Sequence record: PQ462667.1
Length of the DNA stretch: 64,000 bases
Strand: one strand, 5' to 3'
DNA from: Escherichia phage HMD-P3
Shown: positions 576 through 25,234 of the stretch, piece after piece
Layout: every line of letters begins with the position of its first letter
Numbering within the stretch: position 1 is the first letter of the stretch
Position numbers and translations under genes: made by a program
Notes under the pieces: generated by a model
The model's input: only the letters and a program-made list of their open reading frames with translations
Database searches by the model: none
Told to the model about the DNA's origin: nothing

Positions 576-983
576 TTATTCACCTGCGGCCTGTTTTACC
601 TCATCGGCAACGCCTAACAACTGCGCCACGGCGTCCAGCGTTTCCAGCTTCGCGCTTTCAAGGCTTGCCAGATCATCGGCGTCCTTGATAATGCCGGAAT
701 CGATAGCGTGCTTTGCAATTACTCGTACATAGTGAGCTTTACGGATTGAGCTGCCGCCGCCTACTTTGCGTGGCTTGTCGCTTTTTTGATATGCTTTCGC
801 GCTGGTCAATTTCGAACGAACTGACACGGGAGAAGTCGCGCCAACTGCTTTCGCGATCTCTTTCAGGCCGTCGCTATTTGCGAATTCTAAACCGTTTTCG
901 TTGATTAACTGCTGATACATGGTAACAGCCTGCTGAGTGTTTTCTTCGTTCCAGGAAAATTTTGCGGTTTTTGCGTTGGTCAT
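576..983 (-). CDS. hypothetical protein
   Basis: 135-aa ORF; conserved leader ttaattggagtttatacc directly upstream of the ATG. Confidence 0.55.
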   Translation of the reverse strand: MTNAKTAKFSWNEENTQQAVTMYQQLINENGLEFANSDGLKEIAKAVGATSPVSVRSKLTSAKAYQKSDKPRKVGGGSSIRKAHYVRVIAKHAIDSGIIKDADDLASLESAKLETLDAVAQLLGVADEVKQAAGE

Positions 984-2159: not shown

Positions 2160-2640
2160 CTTGTTGATAACTTATCCCCAAAAGCAAAAATGAAATTTTC
2201 CTATTTATCCACTTGACTTTTATTTTCCAGTGGATAACTACTTATTTTATAAAATTAATTAATTGACTTTTATTTGTTAGTATGCATCGGAAAGATAGCA
2301 GACTAATAATTGCTGGGATGATAATCATGCTGGTGGATTGTAACGGCTTAAACTATTAGCAGACTATTAATCACGGAAAATCTCATTAGCCAACTAACTA
2401 TTTCATGATATATAATATACTTATAAATTAATGAGAAATAATAACTATAAGAAATCATCACCAATATAATAACTATAAGAAATCATCACCATTATAATAA
2501 TAACGATAAGAAACTATCGGCCTAAGTGAGAACCACTATCATTTAAGTTATCCACAACGTTATCCACAGCACAAAATAATTTGACACGATAGGCGGCGAT
2601 ATGAGGGCTTTTACACAGACTTATCCACAGGTTATCCTAC
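2160..2640. promoter_or_regulatory. cluster of DnaA-box-like 9-mers
   Basis: Three perfect TTATCCACA at about 2548, 2560 and 2621 plus 1-mismatch variants near 2163, 2173, 2205 and 2231; region is ORF-free. Confidence 0.55.
2438..2517. repeat. iteron-like tandem direct repeat (28-bp period, about 2.8 copies)
   Basis: ataataactataagaaatcatcacca at about 2438 and 2466, degenerate third copy about 2494-2517. Confidence 0.6.
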
Positions 2641-2922
2641 TGTATAAATATACAGGGTAAAAAGGCAGTGTTAACGACTGCAATCAATTTTAAGCGGCCT
2701 AAAACGCTTTCTAACGAGCTAAACGATGCGGGGTAATATTAAAGTAAAGCCGCGACACGGCGCCCTGGTGGCTTCGCCGTGTTTTGCTCGTTATTACACC
2801 GCTGCGCGGTTATCATAAAATTAGGCGTTAGGCAAGGAAAATAAAAAGGTAAATTAATCTTTGCCTATGCTAGAAAATTACCGTTATCATTCACTCACCA
2901 ATTAACGAGGGAGGCCGAACAA

Positions 2923-5431: not shown

Positions 5432-5626
5432 ATGAGCAATAAAATTATTGTAACCAAAACCAGTACAATGGTTGATATTTTTTACGTGCCCGATACGCCG
5501 GAAAACCGACAAGCGGTTGAGCGTGGGGAATATGATAAAGTGATTTATGATCACGATGGTTATTATCAGTATTTAGTGGATTCCTACGGGGAGGAGGAAA
5601 AAATCACGCATCGACTACCAGACTAA
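5432..5626 (+). CDS. hypothetical protein
   Basis: 64-aa ORF preceded by the taataacggggcg element also seen at about 4250. Confidence 0.5.
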   Translation: MSNKIIVTKTSTMVDIFYVPDTPENRQAVERGEYDKVIYDHDGYYQYLVDSYGEEEKITHRLPD

Positions 5627-5665
5627 TAATCATGGGGCGCAACTATCTGGGAGTGCCCCCAATTT

Positions 5666-5690
5666 TCAAATGAGAATGATTCTCATTTGA
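5666..5690. repeat. perfect 25-bp palindrome tcaaatgagaatgattctcatttga
   Basis: Read directly; founding copy of the AAATGAGAAT repeat family. Confidence 0.8.
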
Positions 5691-5889
5691 CCGCGCCCGC
5701 TATGGTTAGCCTGCTAATGGTTAGGGTGTTACGTGTCGCCTTGTGTGATCGTTAGCGTGCTAACTAATTTTCAAGCCTCCTCCAATTTTGCCCTTGTTTT
5801 AGTATCCCCACCAAAATTAAACGCGTTAGAATGCGATCTAGGACGTTTTAGCGGTATATTAGAACTATTCACTGCGTAGGAATACTGTA

Positions 5890-5995
5890 TATTTATCCAG
5901 TAGGATAAGCTGTGGATAAGTCTGTTGATAACGCTTCAAAATGGCTAGAATTTTGTCAAGTCAAATCGTGCTGTTGATAAGTCTGGGGATAACTT
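5890..5995. promoter_or_regulatory. second DnaA-box cluster
   Basis: tgtggataa (perfect, reverse orientation) at about 5921, plus ttatccag, tgttgataa (twice) and ggggataac. Confidence 0.5.
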
Positions 5996-6017
5996 AAATA
6001 ACAGTGTTTCTCACTTC

Positions 6018-6180
6018 CGTTCTTAAATGCGAATCATTATCATTCGCATTCCACTTTTTAAATGAGAATCATTCCACTTTCTAAATGAGATTGATTCTCG
6101 TTTCACTTTCTAAATGCGAATTATTATCATTCTCATTCCGCTTTTTAAATGAGAATGATTCTTATTATCATTCGTATTTA
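6018..6180. repeat. about 6 direct or partly palindromic copies of the ctttttaaatgagaatcatt family
   Basis: Copies at about 6023, 6051, 6073, 6098, 6125 and 6143; ORF-free. Confidence 0.7.
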
Positions 6181-6206
6181 GCGCAGGGCAATTGCCCTGC
6201 GCTTTT
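6181..6206. terminator. GC-rich perfect hairpin (gcgcagggc-aatt-gccctgcgc) followed by TTTT
   Basis: 22-bp palindrome then a T-run; could terminate transcripts from either direction. Confidence 0.55.
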
Positions 6207-6943
6207 GTGCAAATCCGACATTGCTCCACGGGTGTTACGTGCGGGCATGTATGTGCAAATCCGACAATTTTTGGCAGTGTGCAAATCTGACCCGAAAAAT
6301 TTTTATAGTGTGCAAATCCGACAATGAATTTTCCTAAAAACTCCAGCAATCCGATGCTGCGCATCAATCCTGTGGAATTAACTAGAATATGTGCAAATCC
6401 GACATGGGTTTATTTGTGCGAATCCGACAAGATTTTTATGACTTCGATGAGAGGGTGTGTGATTGTGTGAGTTTAGGGAGAAGATGAGAGAGTGAGAGAA
6501 AATTAGGGGAACTACGGAAGGGGCGCATGTTTGGTGCAGGGCACCAGATTTGCGGGGATTTTGGGGAAGAGTTGAGAAGATTTGAGTTAATTTGAGATTA
6601 GTGGAGATAAAGTAAAATTTTATTAGCAAAATGGGGCAAAATAACTTGACAAGTGAAAATTTCTGTGGCTCTAAAAACTCAGGCAATCATGGGCCTTCGG
6701 CCCGAAATAATGCTGCTATTTTCAGGAGATTATGTGTTCCTAAAAACTTAGGTAATTGTGCAAATCCGACCATAAATTTCTAGAAACACAATGTGCAAAT
6801 CCGACAGTAATTTCTGGAAATGTGTTTTCAAAAAATGTCTCCTAGAAATAACCGCCCTCCCCATAACCGCCCTGTATAGGAAAACCGGCCTAGGATATTT
6901 ATAGTAGATGAAAAACTGCCCTAGAACATGTGCAAATCCGATT
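6206..6943 (+). repeat. nine same-orientation copies of the 15-mer TGTGCAAATCCGACA
   Basis: Copies at about 6206, 6252, 6278, 6309, 6390, 6415, 6757, 6792 and 6929 (four with one or two substitutions); irregular spacing. Confidence 0.8.
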
Positions 6944-7351
6944 TAAAGTTCAGTGTAAACCCTAGAGTTAGTGTTCAACTATTCCTAGAAACTTAGGAGT
7001 CTAGAAGAAAGTGTTGTGCCATCCTAGCAGATGAGCGGCAACAGGTGTATCATCTTAAACACAGATATTGCCTTTAAATATTTTTTAGTTATTTAAAAGT
7101 AAATATACCCCCATTTCATGAGAGTTAGCCCCTCTAGGCGCGTGCGATTTGATACATCCTCCTAAGTCTCGGTGTGGAAGAACAATTGACGAGAACCTGC
7201 GAGCAGAACCGTCATCAAGTGTTTTCCTACGAGGAATGATGTAAATCTACGGCCTAGAGGTAAAAACAAGTTGATGTTTTTAATCTATGAGATTATTATA
7301 ACACATTATTCTCACGAATGTCAAGCAGATTTCGTTATTTTTAAATTTTCG

Positions 7352-8189
7352 TCATGAGTTTGGAGTTGGGTAAACTTTTATACAACCTTGACTTAATAGA
7401 TACTCTTCTGCCTCTACAGCTTTAATGTTGAATATCTCTTTTGCTCCATCGAATTTATAATGGTTAGCAAATTTATTTTCGAAAAATTTATGTGCTTGAT
7501 GTTCTATTCTGTAAGCGAGTTCTTTCGATCCTTTTAATGATACGGCGACCACCGAGATCTACACCTGAGGAAACACTCTTTCCCTACACGACGCTCTTCC
7601 GATCTTGATGTTCTATTCTGTAAGCGAGTTCTTTCGATCCTTTCTTATATTGGTAGATACCAAATACTTCCATATCTTCGAAACCCGGCACACGCAATTT
7701 ATCATACTCTAGATTCTTAAACCTTTGATGTGGCTCTCTAGAGACTCCAATCTTTGTCTTTAATTTTTTCCTAGACTGATCTTTATTAGAGAAGATATAG
7801 AGATATGTGGGAAATTGAACATCTTCATCTACTTCTGGCTTCTCGACAGGTGTATTAAGGTTGCTTTCTCTAGCACACTGTAAACAGCCGTGCCCATCTA
7901 GGTGGGATCTAGCAGTTTGCATAAAGTATCCTTTATGCTTATAGCACCATATCTCTACTAACTGATTGGCTGTCTTATAATTAACTTTTTCATACCCATA
8001 TTCTTCTTTCTGGACTTTTAAAGCTTTCCTAATAAAGATAAGGTTTAAGGCCTCTTGTTGGAAGTCAGGGTGAAGTTGCCTAATCTTCGTTATATTAGTA
8101 GAGCCATTTGACTTCAAAAAGTTTTTAAGAGGAAACCTCCGGGCTTCCTCTCGTAGCTTTTTATTAATTTCAGTACGTAAATCATCCAT
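7352..8189 (-). CDS. HNH-like (Cys/His-rich) homing-endonuclease-family protein, reading frame broken by the adapter artefact
   Basis: Track ORFs 7352..7552 and 7584..8189 share the duplicated peptide KGSKELAYRIEHQ; paralog of 10216..10659; motif CYKHKGYF...TARSHLDGHGCLQC. Confidence 0.6.
7536..7605 (+). other. Illumina P5/TruSeq adapter with 8-nt index CTGAGGAA (sequencing artefact)
   Basis: Exact AATGATACGGCGACCACCGAGATCTACAC-CTGAGGAA-ACACTCTTTCCCTACACGACGCTCTTCCGATCT; flanked by a direct duplication of about 40 bp (7494-7535 and 7606-7645). Confidence 0.95.
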
Positions 8190-8907: not shown

Positions 8908-9527
8908 TAACTACCTCTCTTGTCCTCATTAATAGCAGCTCCCAACGCCTCCATAATAGCATCCTCTAAACTTCCATGTTTACTAGGATTATTAAAATGA
9001 ATAGTACAAACAGAACTCCTAGAAACTCCAGCATCCGCAGGTGCTACGCTTCGCATATCAGATTCAAAAGCTTCTTGAGTATGTTTTAACTGCACAGAAG
9101 GGCCGTAATCTTCCGCAAATTTATATGACTGCGTACTACTTACCACACCCCCACAAGGAACATTGTGCATATCTGACATTAATCTTTTATCGGAGTTATT
9201 CAGCATTGAGATTGTCCCTGACTGCCACGGATCTCTAATAGTCACTGGAGTACTAGGGCGGTTCACCTCAGTCTTCACAAGTTTGTACCCTGCATCGATT
9301 AATGCGTTAATTAGATTATCAGCCGGGATGCGAGCCTTGCCAAAAATCTCACGAGCGTTGTTGAGCCTGCCTTCAAAACCTTTACATGCTCTAATATTAG
9401 TGTGTGCAAAGGTTAGCTTCATAGATTTGAATTGTACAGTAGCAGTTAAATCTTTAAAGCTATAATCCCATGTATTCAGTTCATGGTCTGGTACTACTTG
9501 AATAGGTTGTTGTACATTAAAAGTCAT
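8907..9527 (-). CDS. hypothetical protein (206 aa)
   Basis: Long ORF, translationally coupled to neighbours. Confidence 0.6.
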   Translation of the reverse strand: MTFNVQQPIQVVPDHELNTWDYSFKDLTATVQFKSMKLTFAHTNIRACKGFEGRLNNAREIFGKARIPADNLINALIDAGYKLVKTEVNRPSTPVTIRDPWQSGTISMLNNSDKRLMSDMHNVPCGGVVSSTQSYKFAEDYGPSVQLKHTQEAFESDMRSVAPADAGVSRSSVCTIHFNNPSKHGSLEDAIMEALGAAINEDKRGS

Positions 9528-9712
9528 TATTTATTCTCCAGTTTGTCTAACAGTTTATGGGCTGCGATGTTATATTGTTTAAGTTCACGATTAAGGATTT
9601 GGTTCTCACTCTTTAGCTCTAGATTCTTATTATTAAGAATACTGCAGATTAGTAGAAGTGCTAGTATTAGTAACAGAGAACCTACGAGCATTAAAAGAAA
9701 AAGAGTTTCCAT
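9527..9712 (-). CDS. small membrane protein with coiled-coil tail
   Basis: N-terminal hydrophobic helix LLMLVGSLLLILALLLI. Confidence 0.5.
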   Translation of the reverse strand: METLFLLMLVGSLLLILALLLICSILNNKNLELKSENQILNRELKQYNIAAHKLLDKLENK

Positions 9713-9957
9713 TATTTAACTCCCATGTAACGTTTGAGATACACAATGAAGTCTTCTGCTGTATGCGCTGTGCTACCTTGAGATACGAATAGCTTGAGAG
9801 CTTCACGTTGTAGTTTTAGACCCGCTACCTCACCACGTAATTTTACTAGATCTTCTGCTAGTTCTCTAGCTCTACGCATAATAGCAAAAGATACAAGTAC
9901 TACGATGAATAACATAACTACTAAAATAATTGCTATGATTTCCATATTAACATCCAA
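9712..9957 (-). CDS. small membrane protein
   Basis: Hydrophobic helix IIAIILVVMLFIVVLV. Confidence 0.5.
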   Translation of the reverse strand: MDVNMEIIAIILVVMLFIVVLVSFAIMRRARELAEDLVKLRGEVAGLKLQREALKLFVSQGSTAHTAEDFIVYLKRYMGVK

Positions 9958-10223
9958 CTTTTATCACACATTTGGGCATGCTCTATCAATTCATTCATTG
10001 ATATACTGGCATCATAAATACTCTCTAGTATATCCCTTCTGTCAAATTCGTCAACCAAATATTCTACGTTATTTATTACTACTTTATACAGATCTGGGAC
10101 TAGTGAGCATGTATTTGGTATTGGGCGACTGCTTAAGTCTATTTCATTATAGCCCCACGTTGTTTTAAATAGTTTGTTACTAAGTGCTGCTAATGGATTT
10201 GACCATATAATATAGCTACTCAC
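9933..10223 (-). CDS. hypothetical protein
   Basis: 96-aa ORF. Confidence 0.45.
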   Translation of the reverse strand: MSSYIIWSNPLAALSNKLFKTTWGYNEIDLSSRPIPNTCSLVPDLYKVVINNVEYLVDEFDRRDILESIYDASISMNELIEHAQMCDKSWMLIWKS

Positions 10224-25006: not shown

Positions 25007-25234
25007 TTAACATTTCACAGCAGAACGTTTGCCATTTCTAGGTGCACCTGGAAGTCGTGCACGTTCTGCCATTCTTCGCTTAATCTTTGAGATATTTTCT
25101 AGTGTTTGTTCTTCAGGCTTAATACCTGAAACACTACACCACTGATTACCATCCCATGCGGTAATGATCATAACACCATTACCCATAATCTTTTCTGTGA
25201 AAGTAATTCTCATTATAGCAACTCGTCTAAGCAA
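25007..25234 (-). CDS. hypothetical protein
   Basis: 75-aa ORF. Confidence 0.45.
   Translation of the reverse strand: MLRRVAIMRITFTEKIMGNGVMIITAWDGNQWCSVSGIKPEEQTLENISKIKRRMAERARLPGAPRNGKRSAVKC

What the first reader, a model, noticed from the sequence alone, without database searches (positions are those of the whole stretch)
5666..6206. Palindromic AAATGAGAAT(G/C)ATTCTCATTT repeat family ending in a GC-rich hairpin
A perfect 25-bp palindrome at 5666-5690 is followed, 330 bp later, by about six tandem or partly palindromic relatives (6018-6180). The array ends in a perfect GC-rich hairpin gcgcagggc-aatt-gccctgcgc plus TTTT (6181-6206). Clustered palindromes of this size can extrude as cruciforms or bind dimeric proteins. 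Together with the 15-mer array and DnaA boxes this makes a composite 1.7-kb regulatory locus. I could not confirm identity with the T5 injection stop signal from sequence alone.
Basis: partly seen in the sequence, partly recalled or inferred. Interest (0 to 1): 0.65.

Follow-up and report, generated by a model that had tools for sequence, protein, structure and literature searches.

The report
Fur-operator-like repeats in T5 injection-stop region
This is the already described repeat-and-palindrome block of the phage T5 "injection stop signal", here in a T5-like phage; its repeat units score like the best host Fur (iron repressor) binding sites, which gives a long-unexplained DNA signal a testable protein partner.

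Summary
There is a perfect 25-bp palindrome (5666-5690), five related units (6020-6180) and a perfect GC palindrome plus TTTT (6180-6206).

The window is a T5-like phage (Tequintavirus). The block aligns base for base with the annotated injection stop signal (iss) of T5. There it is known as the DRC/DRE repeats and palE-palJ, and the GC palindrome carries the annotated 7.9 % strand nick. The structure is therefore known, but its function is not.

- **Hexamer build:** unit spacings are 23, 29 and 35 bp, that is 23+6n.
- **Fur resemblance:** I trained a weight matrix only on 11 Fur-regulated E. coli promoters. Its five best hits in the whole 64-kb window all lie in this family (18-22.6 bits). 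Real Fur sites have a median of 16 bits.
- **Conservation:** the same clusters occur in 23 T5-like phages and in Klebsiella, Pantoea, Pectobacterium and Vibrio relatives.
- **Cruciform reading:** hairpin potential is not conserved, but the words are. This argues for protein binding.

Best reading: an array of Fur-type operators beside LexA-like and DnaA boxes, forming a host-protein landing pad at the point where DNA transfer pauses. The GC palindrome is a nick site and a terminator-like hairpin. Fur binding is predicted, not shown. The phage A2 protein is the main rival.

The parts
5666..5690 (.). Lone perfect 25-bp palindrome. Its core, AATGAGAATGATTCTCATT (5669-5687), is the best Fur-matrix hit in the whole window.
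   Evidence: I16. Scores 22.6 bits. An equivalent site of at least 20 bits is present in 22 of 23 T5-like iss regions, T5 itself being the exception.
5693..5733 (-). Nick-site-like two-part motif, GCGC-N32-TTACG, starting 3 bp after the lone palindrome. This is a possible minor strand interruption and is inferred only.
   Evidence: It has the same two-part pattern as the four annotated T5 nick sites. The pattern occurs 5 times on the + strand of the window and never on the - strand, against 1.3 expected. It follows the lone box in 16 of 23 phages.
5883..5902 (.). LexA (SOS) box-like palindrome, TACTGTATATTTATCCAGTA.
   Evidence: 18 of 20 matches to the consensus. Only two such matches exist in the window (the other is at 2638-2657), against 0.01 expected. 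Conserved in Klebsiella, Pantoea, Pectobacterium and Vibrio phages.
5911..5992 (-). Two pairs of DnaA or DnaA-like boxes (5911-5919, 5923-5931, 5972-5980, 5984-5992), equivalent to IRD'-spacer-IRC' of T5.
   Evidence: alignment with T5; described by Davison.
6020..6054 (.). Unit 1 (35 bp). Long palindrome AATGCGAATCATTATCATTCGCATT holding two Fur-like sites 6 bp apart (6026, 6032).
   Evidence: D1, I20. Scores 21.2 and 15.4-15.5 bits.
6055..6077 (.). Unit 2 (23 bp, the T5 'DRC' type). A half-site, AATGAGAATCATT.
   Evidence: 9.2 bits. The 13-mer is identical to the core of the aerobactin iucA operator.
6078..6106 (.). Unit 3 (29 bp): AATGAGATTGATTCTCGTT.
   Evidence: 17.1 bits. It shares ATTCTCGTTT with the fhuA promoter site.
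6107..6141 (.). Unit 4 (35 bp), with two sites 6 bp apart (6113, 6119).
   Evidence: 20.8 and 14.8 bits. Its hairpin is weak (-2.2 kcal/mol, z -1.2).
6142..6180 (.). Unit 5 (39 bp), with two sites 6 bp apart (6148, 6154).
   Evidence: 20.1 and 18.0 bits. GAGAATGATTCTTATTATC matches 16 of 19 positions of the classical Fur consensus.
6180..6206 (+). Perfect GC-rich palindrome plus TTTT, a terminator-like hairpin for rightward transcription. Its right arm, CCCTGCGC, is the T5 nick sequence.
   Evidence: I17. RNA fold -24.4 kcal/mol, z -6.2. The stem is kept with different loops in Epseptimavirus.
6199..6239 (-). Predicted major strand interruption, between 6202 and 6203 on the - strand (5'-AAAA^GCGCAGGGC), with a TTACG element 32 nt to the right.
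   Evidence: Homologous to the T5 feature 'major DNA single-chain interruption' at 9748-9749.
6207..6942 (+). Nine copies of GTGCAAATCCGAC (the T5 'DRD' 15-mers). They straddle the end of the terminal repeat, which lies at about 6670 by homology.
   Evidence: 9 copies, all on the + strand, 0.13 expected.

Best explanation
The block is this phage's copy of the T5 injection-stop-signal repeat region. It lies at the far end of the first-step-transfer DNA, inside the left terminal repeat.

**The units as protein-binding sites**
- The repeat units are arrays of hexamers (GAGAAT, GCGAAT, GATAAT and their complements).
- They form 19-bp sites of the type AATGAnAAT-n-ATTnTCATT, often as two sites 6 bp apart.
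- This is the architecture and the sequence of operators for the host iron repressor Fur.

**Proposed mechanism (inferred)**
- When this stretch reaches the cytoplasm, it is coated by host Fur dimers.
- Next to it lie a LexA-like box and four DnaA boxes. Together they would form a host-protein complex at the place where DNA transfer pauses.

**The GC palindrome has two readings that can both hold**
- Its right arm is the recognition sequence of the T5 7.9 % single-strand nick.
- As RNA, the hairpin plus U-run would terminate rightward pre-early transcription.

**What is shown and what is inferred**
- Shown: homology with the T5 iss, the hexamer build, and the sequence equivalence to real Fur sites.
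- Inferred: actual Fur binding (about 0.6) and a role in the pause or restart (about 0.3).
For: **Identity with the T5 iss**
- Best database matches are Tequintavirus genomes.
- The region aligns with the T5 iss annotation (9140-10149) and with the nick annotated at 9748-9749.
- Davison describes the same DRC/DRE/pal repeats and places the shear point of first-step DNA (about 9618) inside them.

**Hexamer build**
- Unit spacings in 24 distinct arrays are 23 (37 times), 29 (14), 35 (25), 41 and 47 bp, that is 23+6n.

**Fur equivalence**
- De novo expectation-maximisation on 11 Fur-regulated E. coli K-12 promoter regions, with no phage input, gave AATGATAATAATTATCATT.
- Scanned over the 64-kb window, that matrix puts its five best hits all in the finding: 22.6, 21.2, 20.8, 20.1 and 18.0 bits. 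Eight of the ten hits of at least 12 bits lie in 5660-6180.
- Real sites score a median of 16.1 bits when left out of the training.
- Controls: 0 hits of at least 12 bits in 73,347 positions of flanking E. coli DNA, and 0 in 14 kb of other T5 DNA. The held-out aerobactin operator scores 16.5 bits.
- The one systematic difference from the consensus (G in GAGAAT) falls on the least informative non-central position of real sites.
- Real promoters use the same words: ryhB GCGAATGAGAATGATTATT, entC AAATGAGAAGCATTAT, fhuA ATTCTCGTTTAC.
- Paired sites 6 bp apart occur in the phage as they do in the entS, entC and fiu promoters.

**Conservation**
- All 23 distinct T5-like iss regions hold 4-7 sites of at least 14 bits.
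- Klebsiella Sugarland, Pantoea AAS21, Pectobacterium DU_PP_V and Vibrio PG07 phages hold 4-8 sites of at least 13 bits.

**Host rather than phage factor for the stop**
- By established knowledge of T5, the pause occurs without phage protein synthesis.

**GC palindrome**
-.
Against: - No binding experiment exists. The matrix comes from only 11 promoters.
- The phage units are copies of one another, so the many hits are not independent events.
- No iron-regulated gene or convincing promoter lies under the boxes. Promoter-like hits number 11 against 7.1 +/- 2.9 expected. The classical repressor role of a Fur operator is therefore absent.
- Every unit also carries a conserved flank that is not Fur-like, CATTC(C/A)(A/G)CTT(T/C). 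It is kept even in Vibrio phages, which suggests a further or different reader.
- Vibrio phage D51 keeps a lone Fur-like box but has unrelated repeats where the array should be.
- The phage DNA-binding protein A2 is conserved across the same phages (about 42 % identity in Vibrio phages). Conservation of the motif therefore does not separate a host reader from a phage reader.
- A cytoplasmic protein bound to DNA that has already entered does not by itself explain a mechanical stop.
- Fur is least active in iron-starved cells, which is when the T5 receptor FhuA is most abundant.
- I know of no report that fur mutants resist T5. This is recollection and was not tested here.
Confidence: 0.55

Rival explanations
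1. The units are binding sites for the phage pre-early protein A2, a dimeric DNA-binding protein that works with A1. The array would be the loading site from which A1/A2 restart second-step transfer. The resemblance to Fur boxes would then be coincidence or mimicry.
For: - A2 (window 576-983, - strand) belongs to PHROG 1725, 'DNA binding protein'.
- It is present in all Demerecviridae examined, including Vibrio phages.
- The predicted fold (pLDDT 84.7) has an N-terminal helix-turn-helix or Myb-like bundle, a basic linker and a helical C-terminal part.
- The conserved non-Fur flank of each unit could belong to such a site.
- A1 and A2 are genetically required for the restart.
Against: - Nothing in the A2 sequence or fold predicts this motif. 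There was no significant structural match.
- A chance match of a phage protein's site to the full 19-bp host Fur motif, including the 6-bp staggered pairs and scores above the best host sites, is unlikely.
- A2 cannot account for the stop itself, because the stop needs no phage protein synthesis (established knowledge).
Confidence: 0.2
2. The block serves terminal-repeat processing, packaging or replication rather than injection. In the right terminal repeat it lies within about 1 kb of the genome end. It would act as terminase recognition or assembly sites with host cofactors, or as an iteron-type origin (DnaA boxes, 23-bp iterons and a nick).
For: - The order 'four DnaA boxes, 23-bp repeated units, GC-rich element with a nick, further direct repeats straddling the repeat boundary' resembles iteron origins, and resembles cos/pac regions that have host-factor sites (comparison from general knowledge).
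- The 13-mer DRD copies lie on both sides of the terminal-repeat end.
- Circular and rolling-circle T5 forms are discussed in the literature.
Against: - No initiator-like gene lies next to the block, and Pfam finds no such domain in the pre-early ORFs.
- T5 origins were mapped near the genome centre, according to Davison.
- The DRD repeats, not the palindromic units, flank the repeat boundary.
- The mapped end of first-step DNA falls inside the array.
Confidence: 0.12
3. The palindromes act as DNA structure. Cruciforms or hairpins, helped by the adjacent nick, would physically jam the DNA in the tail or membrane channel and so stop transfer.
For: - Two perfect palindromes are present.
- Most units fold better than shuffles as single strands (z -3.3 to -5.5).
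- Secondary structure is one of the ideas in the literature.
Against: - Hairpin potential is uneven. Unit 4 has z -1.2.
- Arm changes between phages are not compensated, while the words are kept.
- Half-site units (23 bp) are the most common type.
- The GC hairpin is lost in the Klebsiella, Pantoea, Pectobacterium and Vibrio relatives, which keep only CCTGCGC.
- Linear DNA that carries a nick has no supercoiling to drive extrusion.
- In vitro, T5 ejects its whole genome (established knowledge).
Confidence: 0.05

Closest known systems
Phage T5 injection stop signal (Repeat Region 3 of the left terminal repeat: DRC/DRE repeats, palE-palJ, IRD'-spacer-IRC' with DnaA boxes, DRD 15-mers)
   Same: Homologous and colinear. 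The position after the last pre-early gene, the order of elements, the unit sequence, the GC palindrome and the 15-mers are all the same.
   Different: This phage has five units where T5 has six. It has a perfect GC palindrome, whereas the left arm in T5 is imperfect. It also has an extra upstream module (lone palindrome plus nick-like motif) that T5 lacks but most relatives have.
Fur operators of enterobacteria (iucA aerobactin operator; ryhB, fecI, fhuA, entC, entS and cirA promoters)
   Same: The same 19-bp palindromic motif and hexamer build, sites staggered by 6 bp, shared words of up to 16 bases, and scores equal to or above the best host sites.
   Different: The boxes do not overlap a recognisable promoter or an iron-related gene. 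There are far more sites per 160 bp than in any of the 11 host promoters examined. Each unit has an extra conserved flank. Binding is untested.
T5 site-specific single-strand interruptions (annotated consensus 5'-NPu pGCGCN-3')
   Same: The right arm of the GC palindrome is CCCTGCGC followed by the break point. This matches the annotated T5 sites at 7.9, 18.5 and 32.6 % (the 64.8 % site reads GCCCGCGC), and a TTAC(G/A) element lies about 31 nt to the right.
   Different: Only this site is embedded in a perfect palindrome. The other sites have no equivalent left arm.
Iteron-type replication origins and lambda cosB-type assembly sites that use host DNA-binding proteins
   Same: DnaA boxes lie next to repeated units of about 23 bp, and host-factor sites are interleaved with phage repeats. 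The comparison rests on general knowledge.
   Different: No initiator gene is adjacent, no replication or packaging function has been shown here, and the units resemble a host repressor site rather than a plasmid Rep site.

Membership tests
T5 injection stop signal region (iss / Repeat Region 3) | Lies in the untranslated distal part of the left terminal repeat, after the last pre-early gene and before the repeat end | tested here: met
   The last ORF ends at 5626. The block aligns with T5 9140-10149. The repeat end lies at about 6670 by homology.
T5 injection stop signal region (iss / Repeat Region 3) | Same ordered set of elements: DnaA-box inverted repeats, DRC/DRE palindromic units, GC palindrome with nick, DRD 15-mers | tested here: met
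T5 injection stop signal region (iss / Repeat Region 3) | Acts in cis to halt DNA transfer at about 8 % of the genome | not testable with these tools
   This needs blender or shear experiments or deletion mutants.
Fur operator | 19-bp palindrome of the type AATGATAAT-n-ATTATCATT, or GATAAT hexamers in the classical arrangement | tested here: met
   A matrix trained only on E. coli promoters scores 14.8-22.6 bits at eight sites. Matches to the classical consensus are 14-16 of 19.
Fur operator | Overlapping sites offset by 6 bp (Fur multimer arrays) | tested here: met
   Site pairs at 6026/6032, 6113/6119 and 6148/6154. The entS, entC and fiu promoters show the same arrangement.
Fur operator | Overlaps the promoter of an iron-regulated gene | tested here: not met
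   There is no ORF or convincing promoter. Promoter-like hits are not above the shuffled expectation.
Fur operator | Bound by metal-loaded Fur | not testable with these tools
   This needs a footprint, a gel shift, a Fur titration assay or ChIP.
T5 single-strand interruption site | 5'-NPu pGCGCN-3' on the interrupted (-) strand | tested here: met
   The - strand reads AAAA^GCGCAGGGC at 6203/6202. This is homologous to the T5 feature at 9748-9749.
T5 single-strand interruption site | A physical nick in virion DNA | not testable with these tools
   In the T5 record, three of the four sites examined were placed by a match to the consensus.
Rho-independent terminator | GC-rich stem-loop followed directly by a U-run | tested here: inconclusive
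   The 10-bp GC stem folds at -24.4 kcal/mol and is followed by UUUUGU. The consensus scanner did not list it, and T5 does not annotate it as a terminator.
Cruciform-forming palindrome | Complementarity of the arms kept in evolution, with compensating changes | tested here: not met
   Arms of the array units vary without compensation, half-site units are common, and unit 4 folds no better than shuffles.
Iteron-type origin | Iterons next to DnaA boxes, together with a gene for the iteron-binding initiator | tested here: not met
   The repeats and DnaA boxes are present, but no initiator-like domain was found in the pre-early ORFs.

The most novel reading that the evidence does not exclude
The T5-type injection stop signal would be built from operators for three host global DNA-binding proteins: a LexA box, four DnaA boxes and a dense Fur-operator array. 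These proteins report DNA damage, replication state and iron state. The pause and restart of genome delivery would then be set by host proteins that assemble on the incoming DNA, and so could depend on the host's condition. The layout is conserved from Vibrio phages to coliphages. I found no description of it in the literature I could search.
Probability: 0.3. Interest if true: 0.8.

Novelty: new member of a known kind. Interest (0 to 1): 0.55.

Why it matters
Two-step DNA transfer of T5 has been known since the 1960s. Recent papers still say that the reason DNA stops at about 8 % is unknown.

The repeats examined here sit where the stop was mapped. They have been called impossible to interpret. 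If they are host Fur operators, flanked by LexA and DnaA boxes, the question becomes directly testable with standard tools: fur, lexA and dnaA host mutants, iron chelation, footprinting and edited phages. It would also be an example of a virulent phage using host regulators as structural parts of its entry programme.

If Fur does not bind, the result still stands as follows:
- the finding is a copy of a known element;
- protein recognition, not cruciform formation, is the conserved property;
- the GC hairpin is the 7.9 % nick site.

Tried and rejected
- **Cruciform or hairpin as the conserved feature:** rejected because folding is uneven and arm changes are not compensated.
- **Known RNA family:** nothing reaches a gathering score. 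The hits to Listeria rliA and rliI are below threshold.
- **Promoter under the boxes:** promoter-like hits are not above the shuffled expectation.
- **Separating a host reader from a phage reader by conservation:** failed, because A2 is conserved (about 42 %) in the same Vibrio phages that keep the motif.
- **A2 fold as a clue to its site:** the model is confident but has no significant structural neighbour and is not Fur-like. A2 has no local Pfam hit and no solved relative.
- **A Fur-family or other DNA-binding domain among the other pre-early ORFs:** none found.
- **My first worry, that G in GAGAAT excludes Fur:** withdrawn. Real Fur promoters use GAGAAT, and the position is the least informative one.
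- **Literature on Fur or LexA in the T5 iss:** none found. I could not read Davison 2015, Wang 2005 or Heusterspreute 1987, so an earlier mention cannot be excluded.
- **Vibrio phage Chazly21:** the record starts inside the region, so its array could not be read.

Full report
**1. The observation**

- TCAAATGAGAAT-G-ATTCTCATTTGA at 5666-5690 is a perfect palindrome.
- AGCGCAGGGCAA/TTGCCCTGCGCT at 6180-6203 is a perfect palindrome followed by TTTT.
- Between them, five units start at 6020, 6055, 6078, 6107 and 6142 and are 80-92 % identical to the lone copy.
- The family consensus with up to 3 mismatches occurs five times in 64 kb, all in this region, against 0.02 expected.
- Tandem Repeats Finder reports periods of 23 and 35 bp.

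**2. Where the window comes from**

The region matches hundreds of T5-like phage genomes. The best matches are Salmonella phages SP01, PH204 and Spc35, at 92-95 %. Window ORF 576-983 (- strand) is the A2 protein, so the window starts about 3.1 kb into the left terminal repeat.

The T5 reference record annotates 'injection stop signal (iss)' at 9140-10149 and a 'major DNA single-chain interruption' at 9748-9749 on the - strand. The window aligns colinearly with that stretch: DnaA-box repeats, the palindromic units, the GC palindrome and the GTGCAAATCCGAC repeats.

Davison's comparison of 25 T5-like phages names these elements IRD'-spacer-IRC', DRE1/2, DRC1-4, palE-palJ and DRD. It places the shear-defined end of first-step DNA (about 9618) inside the units, and it says their function is impossible to guess. 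Papers from 2026 still call the mechanism poorly understood. The object is therefore known, but it is unexplained.

**3. Anatomy of the units**

I collected 24 distinct arrays: the window, the reference phages and IMG/VR loci.
- The number of units varies from about 4 to 10.
- The common unit is TTCC(A/G)CTTT(T/C)TAAATG(A/C)GAAT(C/G)ATT....
- Start-to-start spacings are quantised: 23 bp (37 times), 29 (14), 35 (25), 41 and 47, that is 23+6n.

Units therefore grow and shrink by whole hexamers of the type GAGAAT, GCGAAT, GATAAT, or ATTCTC, ATTATC, ATTCGC.

Folding is uneven. Single-strand DNA energies run from -9 kcal/mol (lone palindrome) to -2.2 kcal/mol (unit 4, z -1.2). Arm differences between phages are not compensated. 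The words are conserved, not the pairing.

**4. The units look like Fur operators**

The hexamer build, and the 7-1-7 core TGAGAAT-g-ATTCTCA compared with TGATAAT-n-ATTATCA, suggested the host Fur box.

To test this without circularity I did the following.
- I fetched 11 intergenic regions of E. coli K-12 that precede well-known Fur-regulated genes: fepA-fes, fepD-entS, fepB-entC, fhuA, tonB, cirA, fecA, fecI, ryhB, fiu and exbB.
- I ran a de novo search for a symmetric 19-mer on them. It converged on AATGATAATAATTATCATT.
- I scanned the resulting matrix over the whole window on both strands.

| Window position | Score (bits) |
|---|---|
| 5669 | 22.6 |
| 6026 | 21.2 |
| 6113 | 20.8 |
| 6148 | 20.1 |
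| 6154 | 18.0 |
| 6084 | 17.1 |
| 6032 | 15.5 |
| 6119 | 14.8 |

- The five best hits in the window are all in the finding. Eight of the ten hits of at least 12 bits lie in 520 bp.
- The training sites score 8.4-21.0 bits, with a median of 16.1 when left out of the training.

Controls:
- No hit of at least 12 bits in 73,347 positions of E. coli DNA around the training regions, and none in 14 kb of other T5 DNA.
- I recalled the aerobactin operator from memory and then verified it 21 bp upstream of iucA on IncF plasmids. It was held out of the training and scores 16.5 bits.
- Composition shuffles of the region gave a site of at least 17 bits in 1 of 500 trials, against six observed.

Two further points support the resemblance. 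The single systematic departure from the textbook consensus, G in GAGAAT, falls on the least informative non-central column of the real sites. Real promoters also carry the same words: ryhB GCGAATGAGAATGATTATT, entC AAATGAGAAGCATTAT, fecI ATGAGAATGGTTATCATT and fhuA ATTCTCGTTTAC. Sites paired at a 6-bp offset occur in the phage and in the entS, entC and fiu promoters alike.

**5. Conservation**

- All 23 distinct T5-like iss regions with enough flank carry 4-7 sites of at least 14 bits in the array, with maxima of 20.3-24.5 bits.
- 22 of the 23 carry an upstream lone site of at least 20 bits. T5 is the exception.
- The arrangement is also present in other genera and hosts: Klebsiella phage Sugarland, Pantoea phage AAS21, Pectobacterium phage DU_PP_V and Vibrio phage PG07. 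Each has 4-8 sites of at least 13 bits, with best scores of 21-23.5.
- An exception is Vibrio phage D51. It keeps one lone box, but unrelated repeats fill the array position.

**6. Neighbours**

Immediately to the left lie a LexA-box-like palindrome (5883-5902) and two pairs of DnaA boxes. A second LexA-like box with four DnaA boxes lies at 2548-2657, between the divergent pre-early operons. These are the only two matches to the LexA consensus in the window, against 0.01 expected. Davison's text mentions neither Fur nor LexA. Searches for Fur together with T5 found nothing relevant.

**7. The GC palindrome**

- On the - strand the T5 nick lies at AAAA^GCGCAGGGC. The 18.5 and 32.6 % sites share Pu^GCGCAGGG(C/G); the 64.8 % site reads G^GCGCGGGC. 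All four have a TTAC(G/A) element about 31 nt to the right.
- In the window the pattern GCGC-N29-33-TTACR occurs five times on the + strand and never on the - strand, against 1.3 expected: at 2760, 5693, 6199, 19707 and 36236. The last two are the counterparts of the T5 18.5 and 32.6 % sites.
- The hit at 5693 starts 3 bp after the lone palindrome, so the module 'Fur-like box followed by a nick-like motif' occurs twice.
- The hairpin itself is strong (RNA -24.4 kcal/mol, z -6.2) and is followed by UUUUGU on the + strand only. This suits a terminator for rightward pre-early transcripts.
- Its stem is kept with different loops in Epseptimavirus. It is lost in the more distant phages, which keep only CCTGCGC.
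- Caveats: the IMG/VR loci were retrieved with the right arm as the search key, so its invariance in that set is by construction. Three of the four T5 nick positions examined were themselves placed by a match to the consensus.

**8. Mechanism**

Shown:
- homology with the T5 iss;
- the hexamer build of the units;
- sequence equivalence to real Fur operators;
- conservation across hosts;
- the nick sequence in the hairpin.

Inferred:
- Host Fur binds the array (I put this at about 0.6).
- Together with LexA and DnaA, this forms the complex that holds or marks the DNA at the pause (about 0.3).

By established knowledge, the pause needs no phage protein synthesis and does not occur in vitro with purified receptor. 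Both facts point to host components.

Weak points:
- No promoter or gene lies under the boxes.
- Each unit has a conserved flank that is not Fur-like.
- A cytoplasmic protein does not obviously create a mechanical stop.
- Fur is least active in iron-starved cells.

**9. Rivals**

- **A2 binding.** A2 is a conserved DNA-binding protein with a predicted helix-turn-helix or Myb-like domain. It could read the units or their flanks for the restart. It cannot explain the stop, and nothing predicts that its site should equal a Fur box.
- **Packaging, repeat processing or an origin.** This role is suggested by the iteron-like layout and by the position near the right genome end. No initiator gene is present, and the DRD repeats rather than the units flank the repeat boundary.
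- **A purely structural role.** This is the least supported (section 3).

**10. Verdict**

The finding is real and is the known T5 injection-stop repeat block in another T5-like phage. The Fur-operator reading of the units appears to be unreported in the literature I could search, and it is directly testable.

Noticed in passing
window 2638-2657 and 5883-5902: Two LexA (SOS) box-like palindromes, TACTGTATAAATATACAGGG and TACTGTATATTTATCCAGTA. Each lies beside a set of paired DnaA boxes. They are the only matches to the LexA consensus in the window (0.01 expected) and are conserved in Klebsiella, Pantoea, Pectobacterium and Vibrio relatives. The T5 iss text I could read does not mention them.
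   Followed up: partly
window 2760, 5693, 6199, 19707, 36236 (+ strand coordinates): The two-part motif GCGC-N29-33-TTAC(G/A) occurs five times on one strand and never on the other, against 1.3 expected. It matches all four annotated T5 major nick sites examined, so the T5 nick signal may be longer than the published NPu-pGCGCN. The sites at 2760 and 5693 would be unannotated minor sites.
   Followed up: partly
window 6020-6180 (each unit), also L003-L006: Every unit carries a conserved flank that does not resemble a Fur site: CATTCC(A/G)CTTT(T/C), or CATTCAACTTC in Klebsiella, Pantoea, Pectobacterium and Vibrio phages. No explanation so far accounts for its conservation.
   Followed up: no
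window 6440-6620: A strongly strand-asymmetric stretch, rich in G, A and T and almost free of C (gagagggtgtgtgattgtgtgagtttagggagaagatgagagagtgagag...). It lies between the two groups of 13-mer repeats, just before the end of the terminal repeat, and is conserved in T5 and its relatives.
   Followed up: no
window 7295-7324 (- strand): A perfect consensus sigma-70 promoter (TTGACA, 18 nt, TG-TATAAT; 12 of 12). It points leftwards towards the repeat end and the iss, and no sizeable ORF lies downstream of it.
   Followed up: no
window 7495-7534 and 7604-7643: A 40-bp perfect direct repeat, 109 bp apart, just outside the terminal repeat.
   Followed up: no
L127 (Vibrio phage D51) 5200-5500: Where the Fur-like array would lie, this phage has other repeat families: CAGAATGG(C/T)GTACTGTAACGG, some copies of which fit CTGT-N8-ACAG, and CCAGACGT(C/T)TAGCCAT. 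It keeps one lone Fur-like box. This looks like a swap of the repeat type at a fixed position.
   Followed up: partly
window 2525-2543 and 25196-25214: These are the only two Fur-matrix hits of at least 12 bits outside the finding. The hit at 2525 (17.4 bits) lies in the inverted-repeat partner region next to the DnaA boxes. The hit at 25196 (15.0 bits) is isolated.
   Followed up: no
database hits: T5-like sequences appear in records labelled Listeria, Campylobacter, Brucella melitensis and Enterococcus faecalis. These are probably contamination or mislabelling in public records.
   Followed up: no
window 6018-6208: Below-threshold Rfam matches to the Listeria sRNAs rliA (28.6 bits, gathering score 50) and rliI (24.2 bits, gathering score 45). 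They are most likely chance matches to an AT-rich repeat plus hairpin.
   Followed up: no
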